Below, one piece after another: positions 1-48,784 of a stretch of DNA of 64,000 bases. Source of the stretch: an uncultured Pseudomonadota bacterium (GTDB taxonomy: Bacteria > Desulfobacterota > Binatia > Binatales > Binataceae); assembly GCA_963759165.1 (NCBI GenBank), contig CAVWXK010000001.1, forward strand, positions 2,849,579 to 2,913,578. The letters are read 5' to 3'. The notes beneath the pieces were generated by a model, which worked only from the letters and a program-made list of their open reading frames with translations, made no database searches and had not been told where the DNA came from. The stretch's first letter is position 1, and each line of letters starts with the position of its first letter. A program made the translations under genes and the position numbers.

Positions 1-974
1 AGGGCACGCTGCCTCCAAGTATCCCGACCACCTCGCGCCTGGTGCGAACGCTGGTCCATTCGGCCAGCATCGTGCGAATCTCGGGCGCGCGCTTCACACG
101 CTCGTCGTTGGTGGCGAAGTGTGGATCCGCCCCGAGCTGGGGCAATTCGATCTTGCGGCAGAGTTCCACCCAGTGATTGTCGGTCGGCGCGGCGATAACG
201 ACCCATCCGTCGCTGGTCGGCAACACCTCGTATGGGCACAGGAATGAAGTCACATTTCCTTCCGGAACCGGAATCTTGCCCTGAAGCGAGTACTGGTAAA
301 CGATACGCTCGCAGAGCGCCAGCACTCCGTCGTACATCGCGACGTCGACCATCTGGCCCTCGCCGGTGCGCTGGGCGTGCCACGCCGCAGCCAGGATGCC
401 CACCGCCAGCATCATCGCCGGCACGGTGTCGCCGATGCCGGGACCGGTCTTCATAGGCCGATCCGGCGCCGGCCCCGTGATGCTCATCAGCCCGCCCATC
501 GCCTGCACCACAAGATCATAGGCGGGACGATTCATGTGCTCGCTCGCGCCGGTCCTGGGATCGCCGAAGCCGCGGACACATCCGTAGACCAGACGGGGAT
601 TCACCTTCCGCAGCGATTCGTACGACAATCCCAGCCGGTCCATCACGCCGACGCGGAAGTTTTCGACTAATACGTCGGCATCTTTCACCAGGCGCATCAG
701 GATTTCGCGTCCCTCGGGAAGCCGGAAGTCGAGCGCGACGCCCTTCTTGCCGCGATTGATGCTCTGGAAATAGCCGCCCAGAACCCTGAGGCGATCATCC
801 GGCGCATACGGGCCGAAATCGCGGATCGGATCGCCGCCGAGCGGCTCGATTTTGAGCACGTCGGCGCCGAGATCGGCGAGCATCATGGTGCAGAACGGCC
901 CGGCGAGCATTCGGGTCAGATCGATCACCTTGAGACCGCTCAGCAGCGCCGGGAGATTTCGCGACGCCGCTCAT
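1..974 (-). CDS. CoA-transferase family III (CaiB/BaiF-like); C-terminus cut by window edge
   Basis: Reverse-strand ATG at 974..972 opens a frame encoding [56 protein letters not shown]..., a typical family III CoA-transferase N-terminus and core. The frame stays open to position 1. Its start overlaps the stop of the upstream MaoC gene as ATGA. Confidence 0.8.
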
Positions 975-6409: not shown

Positions 6410-8640
6410 ATGAAAGCCGCAGTAAAACGCGTTGCGAAGGTTTCCCCAGGGCATCGAGGGAGCGGTCCCGGCGGGTTGACCCTGCTCGAAGCTCTTAAGC
6501 GCAACCGTGAATTGTTCGAGAAGACCGGCCACTATCACGGGATCAAAAATCTCAAGCTGAAGGCCGACAACTACCTGCGCTATGAAAGTCTTCATGCGCG
6601 CCTGCGTTCGGCGGTAGTCAACGCCCGCGAGATGTCGAAAAAGATCTCGGCCTCGCCGGGCGTGCGCGAAGTCGGCGAGTCGGTGGTCGCGCTTTATACG
6701 CCGGAAGGCGACAGCATCGCGCTCTCCACCGGCATCATGGTCCACGTGCATACGCTCAGCCGCTTCATCCAGTGGATGATCGAGCACGATTACGAGACCG
6801 ATCCGGGAATCGCCGCGGGCGACGTCTTCGCCAACAACGATCCTTTCATCTCCGACGTCCACCCGCCCGACCTGATGAACGTCGCGCCCATCTTTCACGA
6901 GGGCGAACTGATCGCCTGGGTCGGCACCGTCGCCCACGAACTCGAAATCGGCGGCGTGACCGGCGGCGCCAACCAATCGACGACGGCGGAGCGATACGGC
7001 CAGGGGCTGACCGTAAGCGCCGAGAAAGTCGCGGTCAACGATGTAATCCGCCGCGATTTCCTGGTGCGCGCCGAGATGAACCTGCGCACGCCGATTTATT
7101 ACATCCTGGATGAGAAGGCGATGGTCGCCGCCTGCATCGAGGTGCGCGAGAAGGTGCTCGAGATCGTCAACGAAAACGGCATCGATTATTTCAGGCAGGC
7201 GGTCCGCGACATCATCGAGGAAGGCCGCCGCGCCCACCTCGAGCGGATGAGATTGCTGACCGTGCCCGGCCGTTATCGTTCGGCGGCGTTTTGCGGCCAC
7301 GTCTTCGAAGGCAAGGTGGGCACATCGGGGCTCAGCAACAACTGCATCGTTCACATACCGCTCGACATGACCATCGACCGCGACGCCCTTATGACCATCG
7401 ATTACGAAGGCGTCGGACCCAAGATGTGGAATCCGTACAACTGTCCGCCGGCGGCGATGGACGGCGGTTTCTTCGTGACGCTCACGCAGTTCATCGATTT
7501 CGACGGCAAGGTCAACGACGGATGCTGGTACGCGACGAAAATGATCCTGCCGCCCGGCAGCTGGGCCAATCCGATGGATAACGCGACATCCACGTCGTCG
7601 GCGTGGGCGTCGTTGATGCCGGGCTTCGGCTCTCTGCAGCGGATGATCAGCCGCAGCTTTTACGCGCGCGGCTTCCGCGAAGAAATCTTCGTGGGCCAGG
7701 TCAACACTCCGATCATGGAAGGCGGCGGCATCAACCAGTACGGACAGCGCTTCGGCGCGCAGAACCTCGATGCGCCGCCGAGGGCAGCGGCGCGCGCGGC
7801 ATCATGGACGGCATCGATTGCGGCTACGTCGGATGGAATCCGGAATCCGACATGGGCAACGTCGAGGTCTGGGAGATGTCGATCCCGATTCTGTATCTGG
7901 GCCGGCGCATCTGGCGCGATTCGGGAGGCGCGGGCAAATACCGGGGCGGAGCGACGTTCAGCTCGCTCCTGATGATCCACAAGACGCCGCTTTACAACCT
8001 TGTCTCGACGATCCATTCCGACAAGCTGTTCGACAATCAGGGCATGTGCGGCGGCTATCCCGGCCCGACCGCGCGGTTCCAATATGTGGGCCGCAACAGC
8101 AACATTCGCGAGCTCATCGCGAATCAGGCGCCGCTGCCGCATGTCGAAGGCGACCCGCAATCGCCCGATATGGAGCGCCTGGTCAAGAGCGAATTCGAAA
8201 CCGTGGACGGCGTGTTCCTCGACCGTCCGCTCAGCGACGGCGACCTGTTCCAGTTCTTCTATAACACCGGCGGCGGATACGGCGATCCGATCGAGCGCGA
8301 TCCCGAAGGCGTGCGCGTCGACCTCGACAAAGGCATCCAGTCGGCCGAGCTTGTGGCCAAGGTGTACGGCGTAGTCGCCCGGTTCGATCCCGCGACCAGG
8401 TTGCATACCATCGACGCGGAAGCGACCCGCAAGACACGCGAGCAATGCCGTCGCGATCGTGCGGCGCGCGCGATGCCGGTAAAGGATTGGATGGCCGGAC
8501 AGCGCGATCGCCTGCTCAATCAGAATGTCGGCCGGGAAGTCAAAGATATGTACAACGATGTATTCAGATTTTCCGAACGATGGGGCAGCGAGTATCGCGA
8601 GTTCTGGAATCTTCCCGCCGATTTCACTTTCAAGGTCTGA
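6410..8640 (+). CDS. hydantoinase B / acetone-carboxylase alpha-subunit-like, interrupted by an apparent 1-nt indel near 7770-7785
   Basis: ORF 6410..7972 carries the Hydantoinase_B N-terminal two-thirds (…GINQYGQRFGAQNLDA). The -1 frame (ORF 7603..8640) continues as EGSGARGIMDGIDCGYVGWNPESDMGNVEVWEMSIPILYLGRRIWRDSGGAGKYRGG…. The switch lies in gatgcgccgccgagggc. Confidence 0.8.
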
Positions 8641-8657: not shown

Positions 8658-9143
8658 ATGAATAGCTATCCCAAGGATGTGGTTCGGGATTTGATCGACG
8701 GCAAGCTGCCATGGCCGACGACCAAACAGATAATGAGCGACTTCAAGGATGCGGGCCGCTTCGAGACCTACCTTGAAATCATGCAGGAGCGCGTGCCGTG
8801 GAAGGAGCGCATCCTGTTGCCGATCGGCGAGCATCTTTACATCGTGCAGAAAGGGAAGGCCCGCATCGTCAAATGCGACTGCGGCCACGAGTTCGGCCCG
8901 TACACCGAGAACTGGAAGCTGTCGGCATTGATTTACGTCCGCGACAACGCGGAGAAGCTCGAAGAAATTTACCCCGGCCATCGCAAGTGCGATCCGAACT
9001 GGATGGAGATTCGCGAGTACTACTGCCCGGGATGCCATACGCAGCTCGAAACCGAAGCGGTAACGCCCGGCTATCCGATCGTGTTTGATTTTCTGCCGGA
9101 TCTGGAGGCCTTCTACCGCGACTGGCTGAAAAAGCCATTGTAG
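8658..9143 (+). CDS. acetone-carboxylase gamma-subunit-like small Cys-rich protein
   Basis: ATG at 8658 is preceded by AGGGAG. The 161-aa product (MNSYPKDVVRDLIDGKLPWPTT…CDCGHEFGPY…YYCPGCHTQLE) has a CxC…CxxC zinc motif and the length typical of AcxC. It lies immediately downstream of the A/B subunits. Confidence 0.75.
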   Translation: MNSYPKDVVRDLIDGKLPWPTTKQIMSDFKDAGRFETYLEIMQERVPWKERILLPIGEHLYIVQKGKARIVKCDCGHEFGPYTENWKLSALIYVRDNAEKLEEIYPGHRKCDPNWMEIREYYCPGCHTQLETEAVTPGYPIVFDFLPDLEAFYRDWLKKPL

Positions 9144-9275
9144 GCAGACTTCAAGCGCCTTAAGAACAGGCCGGCCGATGCGACTGGCCCAGTCCGCGCA
9201 ACCAAATTTGACTGAGATCTGCCCGCTTGCGAAAATCGGGGTGCTTTCACTCGCACTGAAGGGGGACTCACGAGT

Positions 9276-9632
9276 ATGCAAAACGAGATCTCGGCGGCCA
9301 TCGCAGCGCATTCCGTATGGAAGAGCAGGCTCCGGACGGCGATCGACAGCGGGAAGAGCGAATTTTCTCCTGCCGTCGTAGCGCAAGACAACCATTGTGA
9401 CTTCGGCAAGTGGTTGCATGATACGGCGGCAACGAGTCTCAAAAACTCTCCGCACTACGGCAAGTGCGAGGAACTCCATCGCCAGTTCCACGCCAGCGCA
9501 GCCAAAGTATTGTCCTTGGCGTTGAGCGGAAAGAAGGACGAGGCGCATCGGTCCATGGATCTGAACGGCGACTATGATGTCGCCTCGACAGCGCTGACCA
9601 AGGCGATGATGGACTGGAAAGCCGCGAAATAA
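9276..9632 (+). CDS. standalone chemoreceptor zinc-binding (CZB) domain protein
   Basis: 118-aa ORF containing the CZB ligand set: HSVW (H-xx-W), CDFGKWL (C-x-F-G-x-W) and HRQFH (H-xxx-H). GGGGGA lies 9 nt upstream of the ATG. Confidence 0.75.
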   Translation: MQNEISAAIAAHSVWKSRLRTAIDSGKSEFSPAVVAQDNHCDFGKWLHDTAATSLKNSPHYGKCEELHRQFHASAAKVLSLALSGKKDEAHRSMDLNGDYDVASTALTKAMMDWKAAK

Positions 9633-9671
9633 GATAGCCGCGGACCGTCTCGAAGGCGCGACGGATTCGCC

Positions 9672-9912
9672 TTATCCCCAAGGAACGCATAAGAGGCGGC
9701 GCGCTGGGCCGACTCGATGCTGCCCTCATGCACAAGACGGGAGATGCCTTGCGCCTTCACCTCGATCTCTAGCCGACGCATACGAACAAAGGGGAAAGCA
9801 CAAAATCATTACACCAAGGGACGGATTAGGCGCGGATGATGTTAGACGACCTGGGCTGATGTTTGCGGGGCGCCTGGCTGTAATCGCCGAAGGCGCGGTC
9901 GCGCTCGGCCGT
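9672..9912 (+). repeat. upstream copy (R1) of an imperfect ~240-bp direct repeat; a degenerate duplicate of the mazF 3' end plus the 3' end of the crotonase gene
   Basis: 9675-9771 differs at 5 positions from 10469-10565. 9829-9908 is identical to 10603-10680. The spacer between the two blocks differs between the copies. Confidence 0.8.
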
Positions 9913-9989
9913 CGCGATAAAGCGTCTGCCTGTACCTGGTACCGTCGCCGAGCATGAGCCTCGCACAGGCGCACCTTATTTGCTACCAT

Positions 9990-10016
9990 AGTTCTTACCA
10001 ATGGTAGGAACATGGT
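9990..10016 (+). promoter_or_regulatory. inverted repeat CTACCAT-N13-ATGGTAG immediately upstream of the antitoxin start; candidate autoregulatory operator
   Basis: ctaccatagttcttaccaatggtag ends 3 nt before the mazE-like ATG. Type II antitoxins commonly bind palindromes overlapping their own promoter. Confidence 0.35.
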
Positions 10017-10241
10017 ATGAGTGTGGCAAAACTTTCGGTTTCGCTTCCTGACTCGCTGGCCGGGTTCGTCGAAAACTATCGCAAAAAGCGCGGCTTGAAG
10101 AGCCGCTCCCAGGTCTTCGAGGAAGCGATCAAGCTGCTGAGAAGCCGGGAGTTGGAGGCCGCTTACCGGCAGGCGAGCGCGGAATACGATAAGGCATGGG
10201 ATAGCACTGTCTCGGACGGGCTGGCCGATGAGACGTGGTGA
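10017..10241 (+). CDS. ribbon-helix-helix antitoxin (ParD/CopG/MazE-like)
   Basis: 74-aa ORF MSVAKLSVSLPDSLAGFVENYRKKRGLKSRSQVFEEAIKLLRSRE… (RHH fold). It overlaps the toxin gene by 14 nt. Confidence 0.75.
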   Translation: MSVAKLSVSLPDSLAGFVENYRKKRGLKSRSQVFEEAIKLLRSRELEAAYRQASAEYDKAWDSTVSDGLADETW

Positions 10242-10563
10242 AATCTACTACGCGGATCTAAGCCCCACCGTCGGCTCCGAGATCAACAAACTCCGCCCGG
10301 TACTCATCGTCAGCAACGACGCGAACAACCGGGCGGCAACCACTGTAACCGTGCTTCCCATCACTTCCAACGTCAACAGGATTTATCCCTTCGAGGTCCA
10401 TCTGTCGTCCAAGGACAGCGGCCTACCAAAACCCTCGAAGGCGCAGGCGCAGCAAATCCGCACCATCTCCAAAGAACGCGTAAGAGGCGGCGCGCTGGGC
10501 CGACTCGATGCTGCCCTCATGCGCAAGACGGAAGATGCCTTGCGCCTTCACCTCGATCTTTAG
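10228..10563 (+). CDS. MazF/PemK family endoribonuclease toxin
   Basis: 111-aa ORF with PemK motifs (RGEIYYADLSPTVGSEINKLRPVLIVSND…VTVLPITS). Confidence 0.85.
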   Translation: MRRGEIYYADLSPTVGSEINKLRPVLIVSNDANNRAATTVTVLPITSNVNRIYPFEVHLSSKDSGLPKPSKAQAQQIRTISKERVRGGALGRLDAALMRKTEDALRLHLDL

Positions 10564-10682
10564 CCTATCGTTTTTTTTCTTTCGGAACCTCGCCCACTAA
10601 ACGCGGATGATGTTAGACGACCTGGGCTGATGTTTGCGGGGCGCCTGGCTGTAATCGCCGAAGGCGCGGTCGCGCTCGGCGA
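10467..10682 (+). repeat. downstream copy (R2) of the ~240-bp direct repeat (the native mazF 3' end, the intergenic spacer and the 3' end of the convergent crotonase gene)
   Basis: See R1. Together R1 and R2 bracket the antitoxin gene and the 5' two-thirds of the toxin gene. Confidence 0.8.
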
Positions 10683-11562
10683 CCATCGCAGACACGCCCT
10701 CGCGCTCGGCCATCTCGATGAAGCGGCGGGCATCGGGGGTGTTGCGCATCAGCCCGTCGAGGATCGGCCCGAGCGTCTGCGTCGAGGCGAGGCCCATGTT
10801 CTCGAACGCCTGGTTGACGACGAGCTTCATCGCCGCGAGCTGCGAGAGCGGAATCGATGCCAGCTCGCGCGCCGCCTGACGAACCTCGCTTTCGAGGCGC
10901 TCGAACGGCACCGCGATGTTGATCAGCCCGATCTCCGCAGCCTTTGCGCCGGAGAGCGGCTTGCCGGTCAGCGCGAACTGCTTGGCTCGCGTGAGCCCGA
11001 GGCGATAGAGCCACATCCCGGTCAGATAGCATCCCCACATTCGCGAGTAAGGCGTGCCGATTTGCGCGTCCTCGCTGGCGATCACCAGATCGGCGCACAG
11101 CGCCAAGTCGCTTCCGCCCCCGACGCACCATCCGTGGACCTGCGCGATGACCGGCTTGGGCGAGCGCCAGATGCTCATGAACTTCGGCACCGGCCCCAGG
11201 CTGGGCGCGGTAGCCATCACGAAGTCTTTGCCGGGATCCCACTTGCCGTCGGTGGTCAGCAGATCGTCCCAACGATGAAAGCCGCCACCGAAGTCGAACC
11301 CGGCGCAGAACGCGCGCCCGGCGCCGCGAAGCACGATTACCTTGACGTCACTATCGGCGACCGCGCGATGCACCGCGGCCTCGATCTCGTCTGGCATCGG
11401 CGGCACGATCGTATTCAGCCGGTCGGGGCGGTTGAGCGTGATCGTCGCGATCGCATCGTTGACCTCGTAGAGCAGCGTCTCGTATCGGACGCGGTTCGGC
11501 CTCGGAGTTTTCTTCAGGCTCTCGCTCCGAGCCTTTACCGGAATCCTCTTTCGAGTCTTCAT
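10597..11562 (-). CDS. enoyl-CoA hydratase/isomerase family protein
   Basis: Crotonase motifs (VIVLRGAGRAFCAGFDFGGG…, …VHGWCVGGGSDLALCADLVIASEDAQ). The start is placed at MKTRKRIP because AAGGAGG lies 7 nt upstream. The longer ORF to 11742 has no RBS. Confidence 0.85.
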   Translation of the reverse strand: MKTRKRIPVKARSESLKKTPRPNRVRYETLLYEVNDAIATITLNRPDRLNTIVPPMPDEIEAAVHRAVADSDVKVIVLRGAGRAFCAGFDFGGGFHRWDDLLTTDGKWDPGKDFVMATAPSLGPVPKFMSIWRSPKPVIAQVHGWCVGGGSDLALCADLVIASEDAQIGTPYSRMWGCYLTGMWLYRLGLTRAKQFALTGKPLSGAKAAEIGLINIAVPFERLESEVRQAARELASIPLSQLAAMKLVVNQAFENMGLASTQTLGPILDGLMRNTPDARRFIEMAEREGVSAMVAERDRAFGDYSQAPRKHQPRSSNIIRV

Positions 11563-11615: not shown

Positions 11616-12431
11616 TCACTTCGCGAGGCTGGAGGCGCGGCACATTCCGTCGTCTGAGCCGCGCTCGTAGCGGTTCGGTTCCTTGTCGTCCCAGATTCCC
11701 TTGCGCGCCTCGAAGTATCCCCGCCAATGGCCAAGCCACCACTCCATCGCATCGACCCAGACGTAGTTGCGCTTCGCTTCAAGCAGTTTCTGCTTTCGCG
11801 GATCGGGATCGACGGAGAAGGATTCGCTGAATCTCCCATCGGACATGAGATACCAGTCGGTGCTCGCGGCGCCGCCGGCGTCCACTTCATTGGTGCGCGA
11901 TTCGTCCCAATAGGTCGCGCACTGCCAGTTGAGGTAACTCTGAACCGAGCAGTTATGAAGAAAACCGTCGAAGCCGCCGATAGTAGATCTGTACACCTGC
12001 TCACTCAGGACCGAGACCGAAAACGTCGTCGGATTGAGCGGTTTGTCGAGCTTGCCGCAGCACAGATTGCCGCGCGCCACCCTGCCCTTGCACTCGACCG
12101 GATAGAGCCGCACTTTGTGGGTCAGCGGCGAGGCGAAGTTGAACAGCAGATCGTTGAGATCGAAAAGCGCCCCGCAGATTAAGCAAAGGAGCGCGAACGA
12201 AGGCGCCCCGATCAGTGTGACCCAAGCCAGCCGATCGCGCGATCTCTTACGCAGAATCCGGAAAAGCAGAACCGCCAGCGCGGTGACAATCCAAAAAGCG
12301 GGAGCGATCGCTGCCTGAACGAGTACTTCCCCGAGCAACCCCAAAGCCGCGCCCTCCGTTTGTTGACGCCGCCGAATTTGCTGCCGCCGTCGCGCGATTT
12401 CGTCGTGGTATGAAAAACGCCCCCGTGGCAT
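11616..12431 (-). CDS. hypothetical membrane protein with two N-terminal TM helices and a Cys-rich extracytoplasmic domain
   Basis: 271-aa ORF. Hydrophobic segments ([35 protein letters not shown]) precede a domain with 8 Cys and many Trp. It lies in the same orientation immediately upstream of the crotonase. I did not recognise a family. Confidence 0.5.
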
Positions 12432-48271: not shown

Positions 48272-48332
48272 CGGCGGCGCGCTTGTCCGGACGCTGAATG
48301 CTCTGCCAAGATAGGCGCAGGCCGCCAACGGT

Positions 48333-48370
48333 GCCGAGGTGGCGAAACGGCAGACGCAGAGGACCCAAAA
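48333..48370 (+). pseudogene. 5' portion of a split tRNA-Leu(CAA) gene (acceptor 5' strand, D arm, anticodon-stem 5' strand and anticodon loop only)
   Basis: GCCGAGG-UG-GCG-AAACGGCAGA-CGC-A-GAGGA-CCCAAAA. The complementary 3' strands (UCCUC…CCUCGGC-A-CCA) are found 10.9 kb downstream at 59301-59348. The following 85 nt (48371-48454) is non-tRNA sequence. Confidence 0.6.
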
Positions 48371-48454
48371 AGAAGACCGCCCGGAAGGCTACCGACCAAG
48401 CTGACATTACATTCGGCTGCCCTATGTGATAGAAAACTCTTGGTAACCAGCCGC

Positions 48455-48784
48455 GCGGGAGTGGCGGAACGGCAGACGCAGTGGACTCAGACCAAACTTG
48501 AGTGCTCGCCGGGAAACCGGCGATGCAGAACTGCTCAAATTCGGGGAAACCTGTGAAATGGCAATCCCGAGCCAAGCCTGGAGCAGCGCTCCGGGAAGGT
48601 GTAGAGACTAGACGGGCAGCACCTAACCCGCGAACCACGTTCGCGGTACGGTGAAGGGATAGTCCAGACCCCAAACCTCAACGGGACGCCCTTGGCGCTT
48701 CCAGCGAGGACGGCGAAAGCCGTAGAGGCAAGAAAATCCACCGAGCTCACGCTCGTGAGGGTTCAAGTCCCTCCTCCCGCACCA
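48455..48784 (+). tRNA. tRNA-Leu(CAA) interrupted by a 244-nt group I intron after C34; 3' CCA encoded
   Basis: Exon 1 (48455-48488) GCGGGAG-UG-GCGG-AACGGCAGA-CGC-A-GUGGA-CUC. Exon 2 (48733-48784) AAAA-UCCAC-CGAGCUCACGCUCGU-GAGGG-UUCAAGU-CCCUC-CUCCCGC-A-CCA. All stems pair perfectly. The long variable arm, A73 and anticodon C-A-A indicate a class-II Leu tRNA. The 3' exon is very similar to plastid/cyanobacterial trnL 3' exons. Confidence 0.85.
48489..48732 (+). ncRNA. group I intron (cyanobacterial/plastid tRNA-Leu type, IC3-like), no ORF
   Basis: It contains …CAAUCCCGAGCCAAGCC… and …GGAAGGUGUAGAGACUAGACGGGCAGCACCUAACC…. These match, nearly base for base, the P3-P4 and P7/P3'/P8 core strings I recall from the Anabaena/plastid tRNA-Leu(UAA) intron. 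P1 is formed by exon ACUC and intron AG pairing with CUUGAGU. Terminal G at 48732. Confidence 0.8.

What the first reader, a model, noticed from the sequence alone, without database searches (positions are those of the whole stretch)
9672..10682. Toxin-antitoxin module bracketed by a ~240-bp imperfect direct repeat of its own 3' flank
**What the sequence shows**
- Copy R2 (10467-10682) covers the last ~95 bp of the MazF/PemK gene, a short spacer, and the last ~80 bp of the convergent crotonase gene.
- Copy R1 (9672-9912) repeats the same two blocks upstream of the antitoxin gene, with a different spacer.
- Block 1 is 95% identical between copies. Block 2 is 100% identical.
- R1 contains a dead mazF tail and a dead crotonase tail. 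The crotonase tail even keeps the stop-codon context.

**Inference**
- This is the footprint of cassette gain or replacement by recombination. One route is integration of a circular mazEF-containing molecule through the shared flank. Another is replacement of an older TA allele whose 3' end survives as R1.
- It is not a simple tandem duplication.
Basis: seen in the sequence. Interest (0 to 1): 0.55.

Follow-up and report, generated by a model that had tools for sequence, protein, structure and literature searches.

The report
Dead duplicate of mazF–crotonase junction
A working toxin–antitoxin gene pair is preceded by a roughly 280-base dead copy of its own downstream end, left by a local DNA rearrangement at a spot that is reshuffled in many related bacteria; it is a real but fairly ordinary scar, not a sign that the gene pair was newly acquired.

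Summary
The repeat is real. R1 (about 9647-9927) is a dead copy of the junction between the 3' end of mazF and the 3' end of the convergent crotonase gene. The live junction, R2, lies at about 10431-10728. A 79-nt block is 100% identical and a roughly 90-nt mazF block is about 96% identical. It is the only long repeat in the 64 kb.

Comparison with uncultured Binataceae relatives changes the interpretation.
- mazEF sits beside the same crotonase in relatives that are 92-94% identical.
- Its synonymous-site divergence matches that of the flanking genes, so the module is inherited, not newly gained.
- None of about 30 related contigs carries R1.
- The stretch between the acetone-carboxylase gamma gene (AcxG) and the crotonase occurs in at least six other arrangements. 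In one of them higBA replaces mazF.
- R1 keeps the ancestral intergenic spacer. The live spacer has no detectable relative.
- R1 is a mosaic: its cores share seven derived bases with R2, while its edges are about 27% diverged and carry in-frame deletions.

Best reading: an older local duplication relic whose cores were later homogenised by gene conversion. Re-installation of mazEF by recombination within the same population cannot be excluded. No recombinase gene lies nearby. Interest is modest.

The parts
8658..9143 (+). Acetone carboxylase gamma-subunit gene (AcxG); the conserved left anchor of the variable locus
   Evidence: Pfam PF08882, E 1.4e-44. It is 94.6% nt identical in L083 and 84% in L094/L101.
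9144..9275 (+). Intergenic region upstream of the CZB gene. The first ~33 nt resemble the AcxG-mazE intergenic region of relatives that have no insert. 9202-9274 is the conserved CZB leader, with a promoter-like site at 9208-9236.
   Evidence: blastn to L097/L100, 78%; alignment; sequences; promoter scan.
9276..9632 (+). Small CZB (chemoreceptor zinc-binding) domain gene. It is unique to this lineage at this position.
   Evidence: Pfam PF13682, E 7.5e-15. The next-closest protein in 5.8 billion sequences is only 71% identical.
9647..9772 (+). R1a, the dead mazF tail (codons ~68-111, no start codon). The left edge 9647-9689 is 74% identical to the live gene and has lost one GGCGCA unit. The core 9690-9772 is ~96% identical.
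   Evidence: tblastn 9650-9769, E 1e-15; alignments; difference counts.
9773..9825 (.). R1 spacer, the ancestral-type mazF-crotonase intergenic spacer
   Evidence: Significant local alignment to the L083 spacer (score 37 against a shuffle mean of 12; 0 of 1000 shuffles reach it). R1 9673-9909 is collinear with L083 over 237 nt at 87.8%. It is also found in L116/L118.
9826..9927 (-). R1b, the dead crotonase 3' end. It has a TAA stop at 9826-9828, a 100%-identical core at 9831-9909, then diverged codons reading RRFIAT (9910-9927) after a 30-nt in-frame deletion between two TCGCGCTCGGC motifs.
   Evidence: tblastn aligns RRFIATAE----------RDRAFGDY to several crotonase homologues with a 10-residue gap.
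9928..10016 (+). About 18 nt of unassigned filler, followed by the conserved mazEF promoter/operator region (from ~9946), including the palindrome TTGCTACCAT...ATGGTAGGAA at 9980-10010
   Evidence: blastn to L083, L094, L113 and L117 covers only window ~9951-10013. The palindrome is conserved in L083 and L094.
10017..10241 (+). mazE-like ribbon-helix-helix antitoxin gene (live)
   Evidence: Pfam PF01402, E 5e-6. Relatives are 91-95% identical at the protein level.
10228..10563 (+). mazF/pemK toxin gene (live). It overlaps mazE by 14 nt. Its last ~130 nt form the R2a copy.
   Evidence: Pfam PF02452, E 1.7e-31, matching the full length of the profile. There are 1219 homologues at E<=1e-20; among the listed hits that carry a source name, the names are Binataceae or Binatus.
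10564..10596 (.). R2 spacer: T-rich, and unrelated to the spacers of R1, L081 and L083
   Evidence: No significant local alignment (574-933 of 1000 shuffles score at least as high). It has no other copy in the window or in any fetched locus.
10597..11562 (-). Crotonase (enoyl-CoA hydratase/isomerase family) gene (live). Its last ~130 nt (10597-10728) form the R2b copy.
   Evidence: Pfam PF00378, E 2.8e-39. 547 homologous stretches align through to residues 319-321.

Best explanation
R1 is a non-functional relic of a local duplication of the mazF-spacer-crotonase junction. It arose within this organism's own lineage, at a chromosomal site that is structurally unstable across Binataceae.

**Proposed history**
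1. Either the unit [mazEF promoter - mazE - mazF - spacer - last ~130 nt of crotonase] was duplicated in tandem and the upstream copy then lost its promoter, mazE and the first two thirds of mazF. Or a ~280-nt copy of the downstream junction was inserted in one step between the CZB gene and the mazEF promoter by template switching.
2. The relic then decayed at its outer edges.
3. Its two homologous cores were kept or made nearly identical to the live copy by gene conversion. The conversion was bounded by the non-homologous spacer and by the ends of homology.
4. The spacer at the live junction was later remodelled, so only R1 preserves the ancestral spacer.

**Shown:** the anatomy; the absence of R1 from relatives; vertical inheritance of mazEF; the ancestral nature of R1's spacer; the mosaic identity pattern.

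**Inferred:** the order of events, and gene conversion as the cause of the mosaic.

**Possible consequence:** R1 has no evident function of its own. Its main effect is that mazEF is now bracketed by 79-90-nt direct repeats. RecA-mediated recombination between them could delete mazEF cleanly, or release it as a ~0.77-0.79-kb circle, while leaving an intact crotonase gene.
For: **The repeat and the relics are real.**

**mazEF is native to this position.**
- mazEF lies convergent with the crotonase in L081/L082 and in L083, L085-L090.
- Four-fold-site divergence is the same for mazF, crotonase and AcxG.

**R1 is specific to this lineage.**
- It is absent from L083-L092, where the SIMPL-domain gene directly abuts the mazEF promoter.
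- It is absent from L113-L115 and L118, and from L094-L099, where AcxG abuts the promoter.
- It is absent from L117.

**R1 is a collinear copy of the ancestral junction.**
- It aligns to L083 over 237 nt at 87.8%.
- Its spacer is homologous to the L083 spacer; 0 of 1000 shuffles score as high.

**The R1 and R2 cores are sisters.**
- They share 7 derived bases against L081, L083, L117 and L118.
- Only 3 changes are private to R1 and 2 are private to R2.

**R1 is a mosaic.**
- The left edge has 11 differences in 42 nt plus a 6-nt deletion. By hand count, the right edge has 5 in 18 nt plus a 30-nt deletion.
- The 166-nt cores have 3-4 differences (Fisher test run on 3; the recount in the same call gives 4); Fisher p = 1.6e-6.

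**The surroundings are ordinary chromosome.** All ten ORFs scanned between 1.5 and 19.3 kb match metabolic or housekeeping families, with no integrase or transposase family among them. The window has no tRNA call.

**The locus is a hotspot.** At least 7 arrangements exist between AcxG and what lies downstream, including higBA replacing mazF in L117.
Against: - No genome closer than about 94% nt identity was found, so the intermediate states (a full tandem duplicate, or CZB next to the promoter without R1) are not observed.
- Gene conversion must be invoked twice, once on each side of the spacer. Alternatively it happened once, before the live spacer changed.
- The edges are short (60 nt in all), so their apparent age is imprecise: 27% divergence, with a rough 16-40% range that I estimated by hand, not from a tool call.
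- The ~18 nt at 9928-9945 are of unknown origin, as is the whole live spacer.
- Read-level support for the assembly could not be checked. Consensus polishing of a metagenome assembly could in principle mimic homogenised cores.
Confidence: 0.55

Rival explanations
1. Re-installation of mazEF by recombination within the population; this is the first reader's model, narrowed. An ancestor had already lost most of mazEF, leaving CZB - dead mazF tail - ancestral spacer - crotonase. A mazEF-bearing fragment or ~0.8-kb circle from a close relative, carrying its own spacer and a piece of the crotonase 3' end, then integrated. The route was a single crossover in the shared crotonase tail (Campbell-type) or homology-facilitated illegitimate recombination. 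That event duplicated the tail.
For: - The topology is exactly what a single crossover in the 79-nt block would give.
- The two junctions differ in spacer, last codon and stop codon, as expected for two alleles.
- R1 carries the ancestral state at 9689 where the live gene is derived.
- In L117 a toxin-antitoxin (TA) gene at this very locus was demonstrably replaced by another module, leaving a truncated mazE.
Against: - The live mazEF shows the same divergence from relatives as its flanks, and the R1 and R2 cores share 7 derived bases. Any donor would therefore have to be a near-clone of the recipient.
- The model does not by itself explain why R1's edges are about 27% diverged while its cores are 97-100% identical.
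- No 'empty' recipient allele and no circle were found.
Confidence: 0.27
2. mazEF is a site-specific mobile cassette, like an integrative element that restores the 3' end of its target gene, or like an integron cassette. On this view the 79-nt repeats are its attachment sites.
For: - Perfect 79-nt direct repeats bracket a ~0.7-kb segment that holds only mazEF, and one repeat is the 3' end of a gene. That is the classic attL/attR picture (own knowledge).
- The mechanism by which TA modules move is reported as unknown (PMC7167474).
Against: - No recombinase gene appears among the ten ORFs scanned between 1.5 and 19.3 kb.
- The repeat unit also includes a mazF tail, which is part of the supposed cargo itself.
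- Relatives carry mazEF at this site without any flanking repeat.
- The repeat occurs nowhere else in the window or in 120 fetched loci, apart from the orthologous crotonase ends.
- Block 2 is ordinary conserved coding sequence, and the repeat finder reports no hairpin-forming inverted repeat within R1 or R2 that would resemble an attC site.
Confidence: 0.04
3. Assembly or polishing artefact. Two strain haplotypes of the same junction were strung together in the metagenome-assembled chromosome, or R1's cores were over-corrected toward R2.
For: - The source is a 3.27-Mb contig whose relatives in these collections are all metagenome-derived.
- The window contains at least one single-base frameshift in a conserved gene, near 7771. 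This hints at residual consensus errors.
Against: - R1 is not a copy of any haplotype seen elsewhere. It has its own truncation points, two in-frame deletions, private substitutions and a novel junction to the mazEF promoter region.
- A mis-join at a shared repeat would continue into the rest of the crotonase gene, not into the mazE promoter.
- The identical stretch is only 79 nt.
Confidence: 0.06

Closest known systems
Plastic chromosomal toxin-antitoxin insertion loci and decaying TA modules in Escherichia coli and Salmonella (the relA-mazG and folA-apaH sites; ccdO157 decay), as reviewed in PMC7167474
   Same: - A fixed chromosomal site between housekeeping genes holds different TA modules or other inserts in different lineages.
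- Some copies are truncated relics. Here these are the dead mazF tail in the window and the truncated mazE beside higBA in L117.
   Different: - The relic here is not just a decayed module. It is a duplicated piece that also contains the 3' end of the neighbouring crotonase gene.
- The organisms are uncultured Binataceae, known only from metagenomes.
attL/attR duplication of a gene's 3' end by integrative elements such as prophages and genomic islands in tRNA or tmRNA genes (own knowledge)
   Same: An identical direct repeat, one copy of which is the functional 3' end of a gene, brackets an accessory segment.
   Different: - There is no integrase.
- The repeat also covers part of the cargo (the mazF tail).
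- Relatives carry the cargo without the repeat.
- The upstream copy is decayed at both edges.
Homology-facilitated illegitimate recombination and Campbell-type single-crossover integration (own knowledge: de Vries and Wackernagel 2002, for naturally transformable bacteria)
   Same: The topology fits one homologous anchor, either the crotonase tail or the acetone-carboxylase side, plus one novel non-homologous junction at 9928-9945.
   Different: - Nothing indicates foreign DNA: donor and recipient would be the same lineage.
- The process was not observed, and the organism's transformability is unknown.
Concerted evolution of short duplicated segments by gene conversion (general phenomenon, own knowledge)
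   Same: Identity is high in the middle of the duplicated segments and collapses toward their ends. The copies share derived substitutions.
   Different: - Conversion is inferred from about 280 nt in a single genome.
- The non-homologous spacer splits the tract in two.

Membership tests
Type II toxin-antitoxin module, PemK/MazF toxin with ribbon-helix-helix antitoxin (the live module at 10017-10563) | The toxin matches the PemK/MazF family over its full length | tested here: met
   PF02452, E 1.7e-31, profile positions 1-108 of 109
Type II toxin-antitoxin module, PemK/MazF toxin with ribbon-helix-helix antitoxin (the live module at 10017-10563) | A small DNA-binding antitoxin gene lies immediately upstream, overlapping or abutting the toxin gene | tested here: met
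   A 74-aa RHH_1 protein (PF01402, E 5e-6) whose gene overlaps mazF by 14 nt
Type II toxin-antitoxin module, PemK/MazF toxin with ribbon-helix-helix antitoxin (the live module at 10017-10563) | An operator-like palindrome in the promoter region, for autoregulation | tested here: met
   A 10-nt inverted repeat at 9980-10010, conserved in L083 and L094. Binding itself was not tested.
Type II toxin-antitoxin module, PemK/MazF toxin with ribbon-helix-helix antitoxin (the live module at 10017-10563) | The toxin is toxic and is neutralised by the antitoxin | not testable with these tools
   Requires expression experiments
Gene relic or pseudogene fragment (R1) | Homology to only part of a gene, with no start codon and the essential N-terminal part missing | tested here: met
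   - Only mazF residues 72-111 and crotonase residues ~279-321 (minus 10) are present.
- An in-frame TAG lies at 9635-9637, upstream of the mazF fragment.
Integrative element with att direct repeats | A site-specific recombinase encoded in or next to the bracketed segment | tested here: not met
   The bracketed segment holds only mazEF. The ten ORFs scanned between 1.5 and 19.3 kb are metabolic or housekeeping.
Integrative element with att direct repeats | Relatives show an empty site with a single repeat copy and no cargo | tested here: not met
   Relatives have a single junction but still carry mazEF.
Integron gene cassette | An attC recombination site (imperfect inverted repeat) at the cassette boundary, with an intI integrase nearby | tested here: not met
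   - The repeat is conserved crotonase and mazF coding sequence.
- The repeat finder reports no hairpin-forming inverted repeat within R1 or R2; its only inverted pairs are 71%-complementary arms 325 and 1116 nt apart, reaching into the crotonase gene.
- No integrase was found.
Tandem duplication | Two head-to-tail copies of one unit, joined by a single novel junction | tested here: inconclusive
   - A novel junction between the crotonase relic and the mazEF promoter region exists at 9928-9945.
- Copy spacing is 771/791 nt.
- Only ~280 nt of the upstream unit remain, so a further deletion or a different one-step mechanism is required.
Gene conversion between direct repeats | Mosaic identity (homogenised core, diverged edges) plus derived states shared by the copies | tested here: met
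   Fisher p = 1.6e-6 for edges against cores, and 7 shared derived bases. This is a pattern consistent with conversion; the process itself was not observed.

The most novel reading that the evidence does not exclude
The repeat-bracketed mazEF may be a recombinase-free mobile unit. RecA recombination between the 79-90-nt flanking repeats would release a ~0.77-0.79-kb circle containing the promoter, mazE, mazF, the spacer and a crotonase tail. That circle could re-enter any related chromosome by a single crossover in the crotonase 3' end, rebuilding exactly the structure seen here. Toxin addiction would penalise cells that lose the module. This would be a concrete mechanism for how chromosomal toxin-antitoxin modules move and persist, which a 2020 review calls unelucidated (PMC7167474).
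Probability: 0.07. Interest if true: 0.6.

Novelty: new member of a known kind. Interest (0 to 1): 0.27.

Why it matters
The finding gives a clean, dated example of how a chromosomal toxin-antitoxin locus is remodelled without any mobile-element machinery. It shows a duplicated junction, partial loss, and probable gene conversion, at a site that relatives have rearranged in at least six other ways; one of those swaps mazF for higBA.

For people who study TA evolution it is a useful case of locus plasticity in an uncultured lineage (Binataceae). It also shows a configuration in which a TA module is primed for precise deletion or excision by its own flanking repeats.

It does not reveal a new kind of element or mechanism.

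Tried and rejected
- **Exact-protein look-ups.** Look-ups of the window's own MazF and crotonase found nothing on record, although identical proteins P0001 and P0241 exist on a 3.27-Mb contig. The source genome's own flanks could therefore not be re-fetched.
- **Genome-collection scan with the crotonase.** It returned 80 loci at 83% aa identity or less, mostly Solirubrobacterales and Binatia. None has mazEF, CZB or AcxG nearby, so they were uninformative for synteny.
- **R2 spacer as a deletion derivative of the 217-nt L081 spacer.** I first thought this was the case, but the alignment is not better than shuffles, so I rejected the idea.
- **Extending the crotonase relic at the DNA level.** Local DNA alignment past 9909 was not significant. 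The extension is supported only at the protein level, through the 10-residue-gap alignments.
- **Structured RNA or terminator in R1.** There is no Rfam hit in 9000-10800 at E<=1. The hairpin at ~9640-9670 is not more stable than shuffled sequence (z = -0.37). There are no terminator-like sites on the + strand.
- **Paralogous loci.** L093, L119 and L120 are mazEF paralogues in unrelated contexts.
- **Possible target-site duplication.** A candidate ~11-14-nt duplication flanks the whole 9174-9945 insert (AAGAACAGGCC at 9163-9173 and GAGCATGAGCC at 9950-9960). The two copies are too diverged to call.
- **Literature.** Searches found no described case of this exact structure.

Full report
**1.

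The window carries these genes on the + strand:
- an acetone-carboxylase gamma-subunit gene (AcxG, 8658-9143);
- a small CZB-domain gene (9276-9632);
- a ribbon-helix-helix antitoxin gene (mazE-like, 10017-10241);
- a PemK/MazF toxin gene (10228-10563).

A convergent crotonase-family gene lies at 10597-11562 on the - strand.

The repeat finder and a pairwise alignment confirm two repeat blocks upstream of mazE:
- 9831-9909 equals 10602-10680 at 79/79.
- 9683-9774 matches 10474-10565 at 95.7%.

Probes from each block hit exactly twice in the window, against zero expected. This is the only long repeat in the 64 kb. tblastn reads the upstream copy, R1, as MazF residues 72-111 (E 1e-15) and crotonase residues 294-321 (E 6e-12).

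**2. R1 is larger and more structured than described**

On the left, homology to mazF continues to about 9647, just 15 nt after the CZB stop codon. This stretch has 11 differences in 42 nt and has lost one unit of a GGCGCA-GGCGCA tandem. The changes break residues that are invariant or nearly so in 120 family members (SKAQAQQIRTISKER).

On the right, the minus-strand reading of R1 is ...GRRFIATAERDRAFGDYSQ... The live protein reads ...DARRFIEMAEREGVSAMVAERDRAFGDYSQ... tblastn independently aligns R1 to several crotonase homologues with a 10-residue gap. The gap corresponds to a 30-nt deletion between two copies of TCGCGCTCGGC (10669-10680 and 10699-10710).

R1 is therefore about 9647-9927. Both of its outer edges are about 27% diverged and carry in-frame deletions. 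The inner cores differ from the live copy, R2, at only 3-4 of 166 positions (Fisher p = 1.6e-6, run on 3).

The dead crotonase tail ends ...IIRA with TAA. The live one ends ...IIRV with TAG.

**3. Relatives**

The organism belongs to the uncultured Binataceae. Its own MazF and CZB proteins are on record only once, on a 3.27-Mb contig.

Contigs found through close MazE and MazF relatives give the comparison set. A metagenome scan with the CZB protein added more. Two distance classes matter:
- L081/L082, L083-L092 and L117 are 92-95% identical to the window in AcxG, mazE, mazF, the crotonase and the gene beyond it. They are 94-97% identical to one another.
- L113-L116, L118 and L094-L100 are more distant, at 80-91%.

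The arrangements are:

| Loci | Arrangement |
|---|---|
| L083-L092 | AcxG - SIMPL-domain gene - mazEF - 52-nt spacer - crotonase |
| L117 | AcxG - SIMPL - mazE truncated to 71 codons - higBA on the opposite strand - crotonase (mazF replaced by another TA module) |
| L113-L116, L118 | AcxG - 104 nt - mazEF - the same ancestral spacer - a different gene |
| L081/L082 | mazEF - 217-nt spacer with an extra insert - crotonase |
| L094-L100 | AcxG - mazEF - CZB - CZB - other genes |
| L101 | AcxG - CZB - CZB, with no mazEF |

None of these contigs contains R1.

**4. What this says about origin**

- **mazEF is not a recent gain.** The mazEF-crotonase adjacency is shared with the closest relatives. 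Four-fold-site divergence of mazF (17.5-20%) equals that of the crotonase (14-20%) and AcxG (15-19%).
- **R1 is a collinear copy of the ancestral junction.** R1 9673-9909 aligns to L083 as one 237-nt block at 87.8%, spacer included. R1's spacer is significantly homologous to the L083 spacer (0 of 1000 shuffles). The live R2 spacer matches nothing: not R1, L081 or L083, nor anything else in the window or the fetched loci.
- **The R1 and R2 cores are sisters.** They share 3 derived bases in the mazF tail (9700, 9704, 9742) and 4 in the crotonase tail (9844, 9849, 9851, 9862), against L081, L083, L117 and L118. Three changes are private to R1 and two are private to R2. One of the R2-private changes is at 9689, where R1 keeps the ancestral base, so R1 is not a copy of today's R2.
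- **No mobile-element machinery is nearby.** The ten ORFs scanned between 1.5 and 19.3 kb are metabolic or housekeeping: acyl-CoA dehydrogenase, MaoC, a second crotonase, hydantoinase A and B-type acetone-carboxylase subunits, NAD synthase, ThiC and ThiF. No integrase or transposase family is among them, and ARAGORN calls no tRNA.

**5. Most likely history (inferred)**

A local duplication placed a second copy of the mazF-spacer-crotonase-3' junction between the CZB gene and the mazEF promoter. Two routes are possible:
- a tandem duplication of the ~0.79-kb unit, followed by loss of the upstream promoter, mazE and the 5' part of mazF;
- a one-step templated insertion.

The relic's outer edges decayed. 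Its two cores, each bounded by non-homology, stayed or became nearly identical to the live copy, most simply by gene conversion. The live spacer and the last crotonase codon changed later.

I put this at about 0.55.

In it, a chromosome that had already lost most of mazEF regained it through a single crossover or homology-facilitated illegitimate recombination in the crotonase tail. It predicts the same topology and fits the two different spacers. However, it needs a near-clonal donor and does not explain the edge-versus-core contrast. L117 shows that TA replacement does happen at this site.

A site-specific cassette (about 0.04) and an assembly artefact (about 0.06) are unlikely, for the reasons given under the rival explanations.

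**6. Function**

R1 shows no sign of function:
- It has no intact ORF.
- It has no Rfam match.
- The hairpin at about 9640-9670 is no more stable than shuffled sequence.

Its one mechanistic consequence follows from the anatomy. mazEF is bracketed by perfect direct repeats, so homologous recombination could remove it precisely, or release it as a small circle, while leaving an intact crotonase gene. Whether toxin addiction opposes that loss is untested.

**7. Comparison with known systems, and verdict**

This matches the known plasticity and decay of chromosomal TA loci. The review PMC7167474 notes that TA insertion sites accommodate different elements and that the integration mechanism is unknown. 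The topology resembles att duplication or Campbell integration, but the defining features of those systems (a recombinase, and an empty site without cargo) were tested and not met.

I classify the finding as a new example of a known kind of scar. It has modest interest (0.27), raised slightly by the well-resolved hotspot and by the conversion-like mosaic.

Noticed in passing
window 48325-48685: A group I intron-like sequence lies at 48398-48685 (Rfam RF00028, 45 bits against a gathering score of 50, E 7.8e-10). It overlaps and continues from a tRNA-Leu-like 5' half at 48447-48489. A second, 79%-identical copy of that tRNA 5' half lies 122 nt upstream at 48325-48367. ARAGORN calls no tRNA in the window. 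This may be an intron-split tRNA gene with a duplicated 5' fragment.
   Followed up: partly
window ~7771 (ORFs 6410-7972 and 7603-8640): The hydantoinase-B-type acetone-carboxylase subunit gene is split into two overlapping ORFs by a single missing base relative to L083 (ACCTCGA-TGCGCC against ACCTCGAGTGCGCC). It is either a real frameshift or a consensus error in the assembly.
   Followed up: partly
L117 3563-4660 (GCA_036705545.1): At the orthologous locus of a relative, mazF has been replaced by an oppositely oriented higB/HTH-antitoxin pair. This leaves a mazE truncated to 71 codons and a few bases of the mazF start. It is a direct example of TA turnover at this site.
   Followed up: partly
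L081 448-664, L082 449-665: In this relative the mazF-crotonase spacer is 217 nt. It keeps the ancestral first ~45 nt, then carries an extra ~165-nt insert rich in inverted repeats, possibly a small mobile element. The fold is not significantly more stable than shuffles (z = -1.0).
   Followed up: partly
L100 320-1130; L101 5506-6354: More distant Binataceae carry two tandem CZB-domain genes downstream of AcxG or mazEF. The window has a single CZB gene, whose nearest relative is only 71% identical.
   Followed up: no
L116 ~600-683, L118 ~765-870: In these relatives the ancestral spacer after mazF is followed not by the crotonase but by a different minus-strand gene. The breakpoint lies exactly where the crotonase stop codon sits in L083.
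   Followed up: no
window 9163-9173 and 9950-9960: Both borders of the 9174-9945 segment (CZB plus R1) resemble the same stretch, AAGGATGGGCC, of the uninterrupted AcxG-mazE intergenic region of L113/L118. This could be an old, diverged target duplication, but it is too weak to call.
   Followed up: partly
window 11616-12431 (-): A 271-aa ORF beyond the crotonase gene, adjacent to its 5' end, has no Pfam match. It is conserved at ~91% nt identity in L081 and L083.
   Followed up: no
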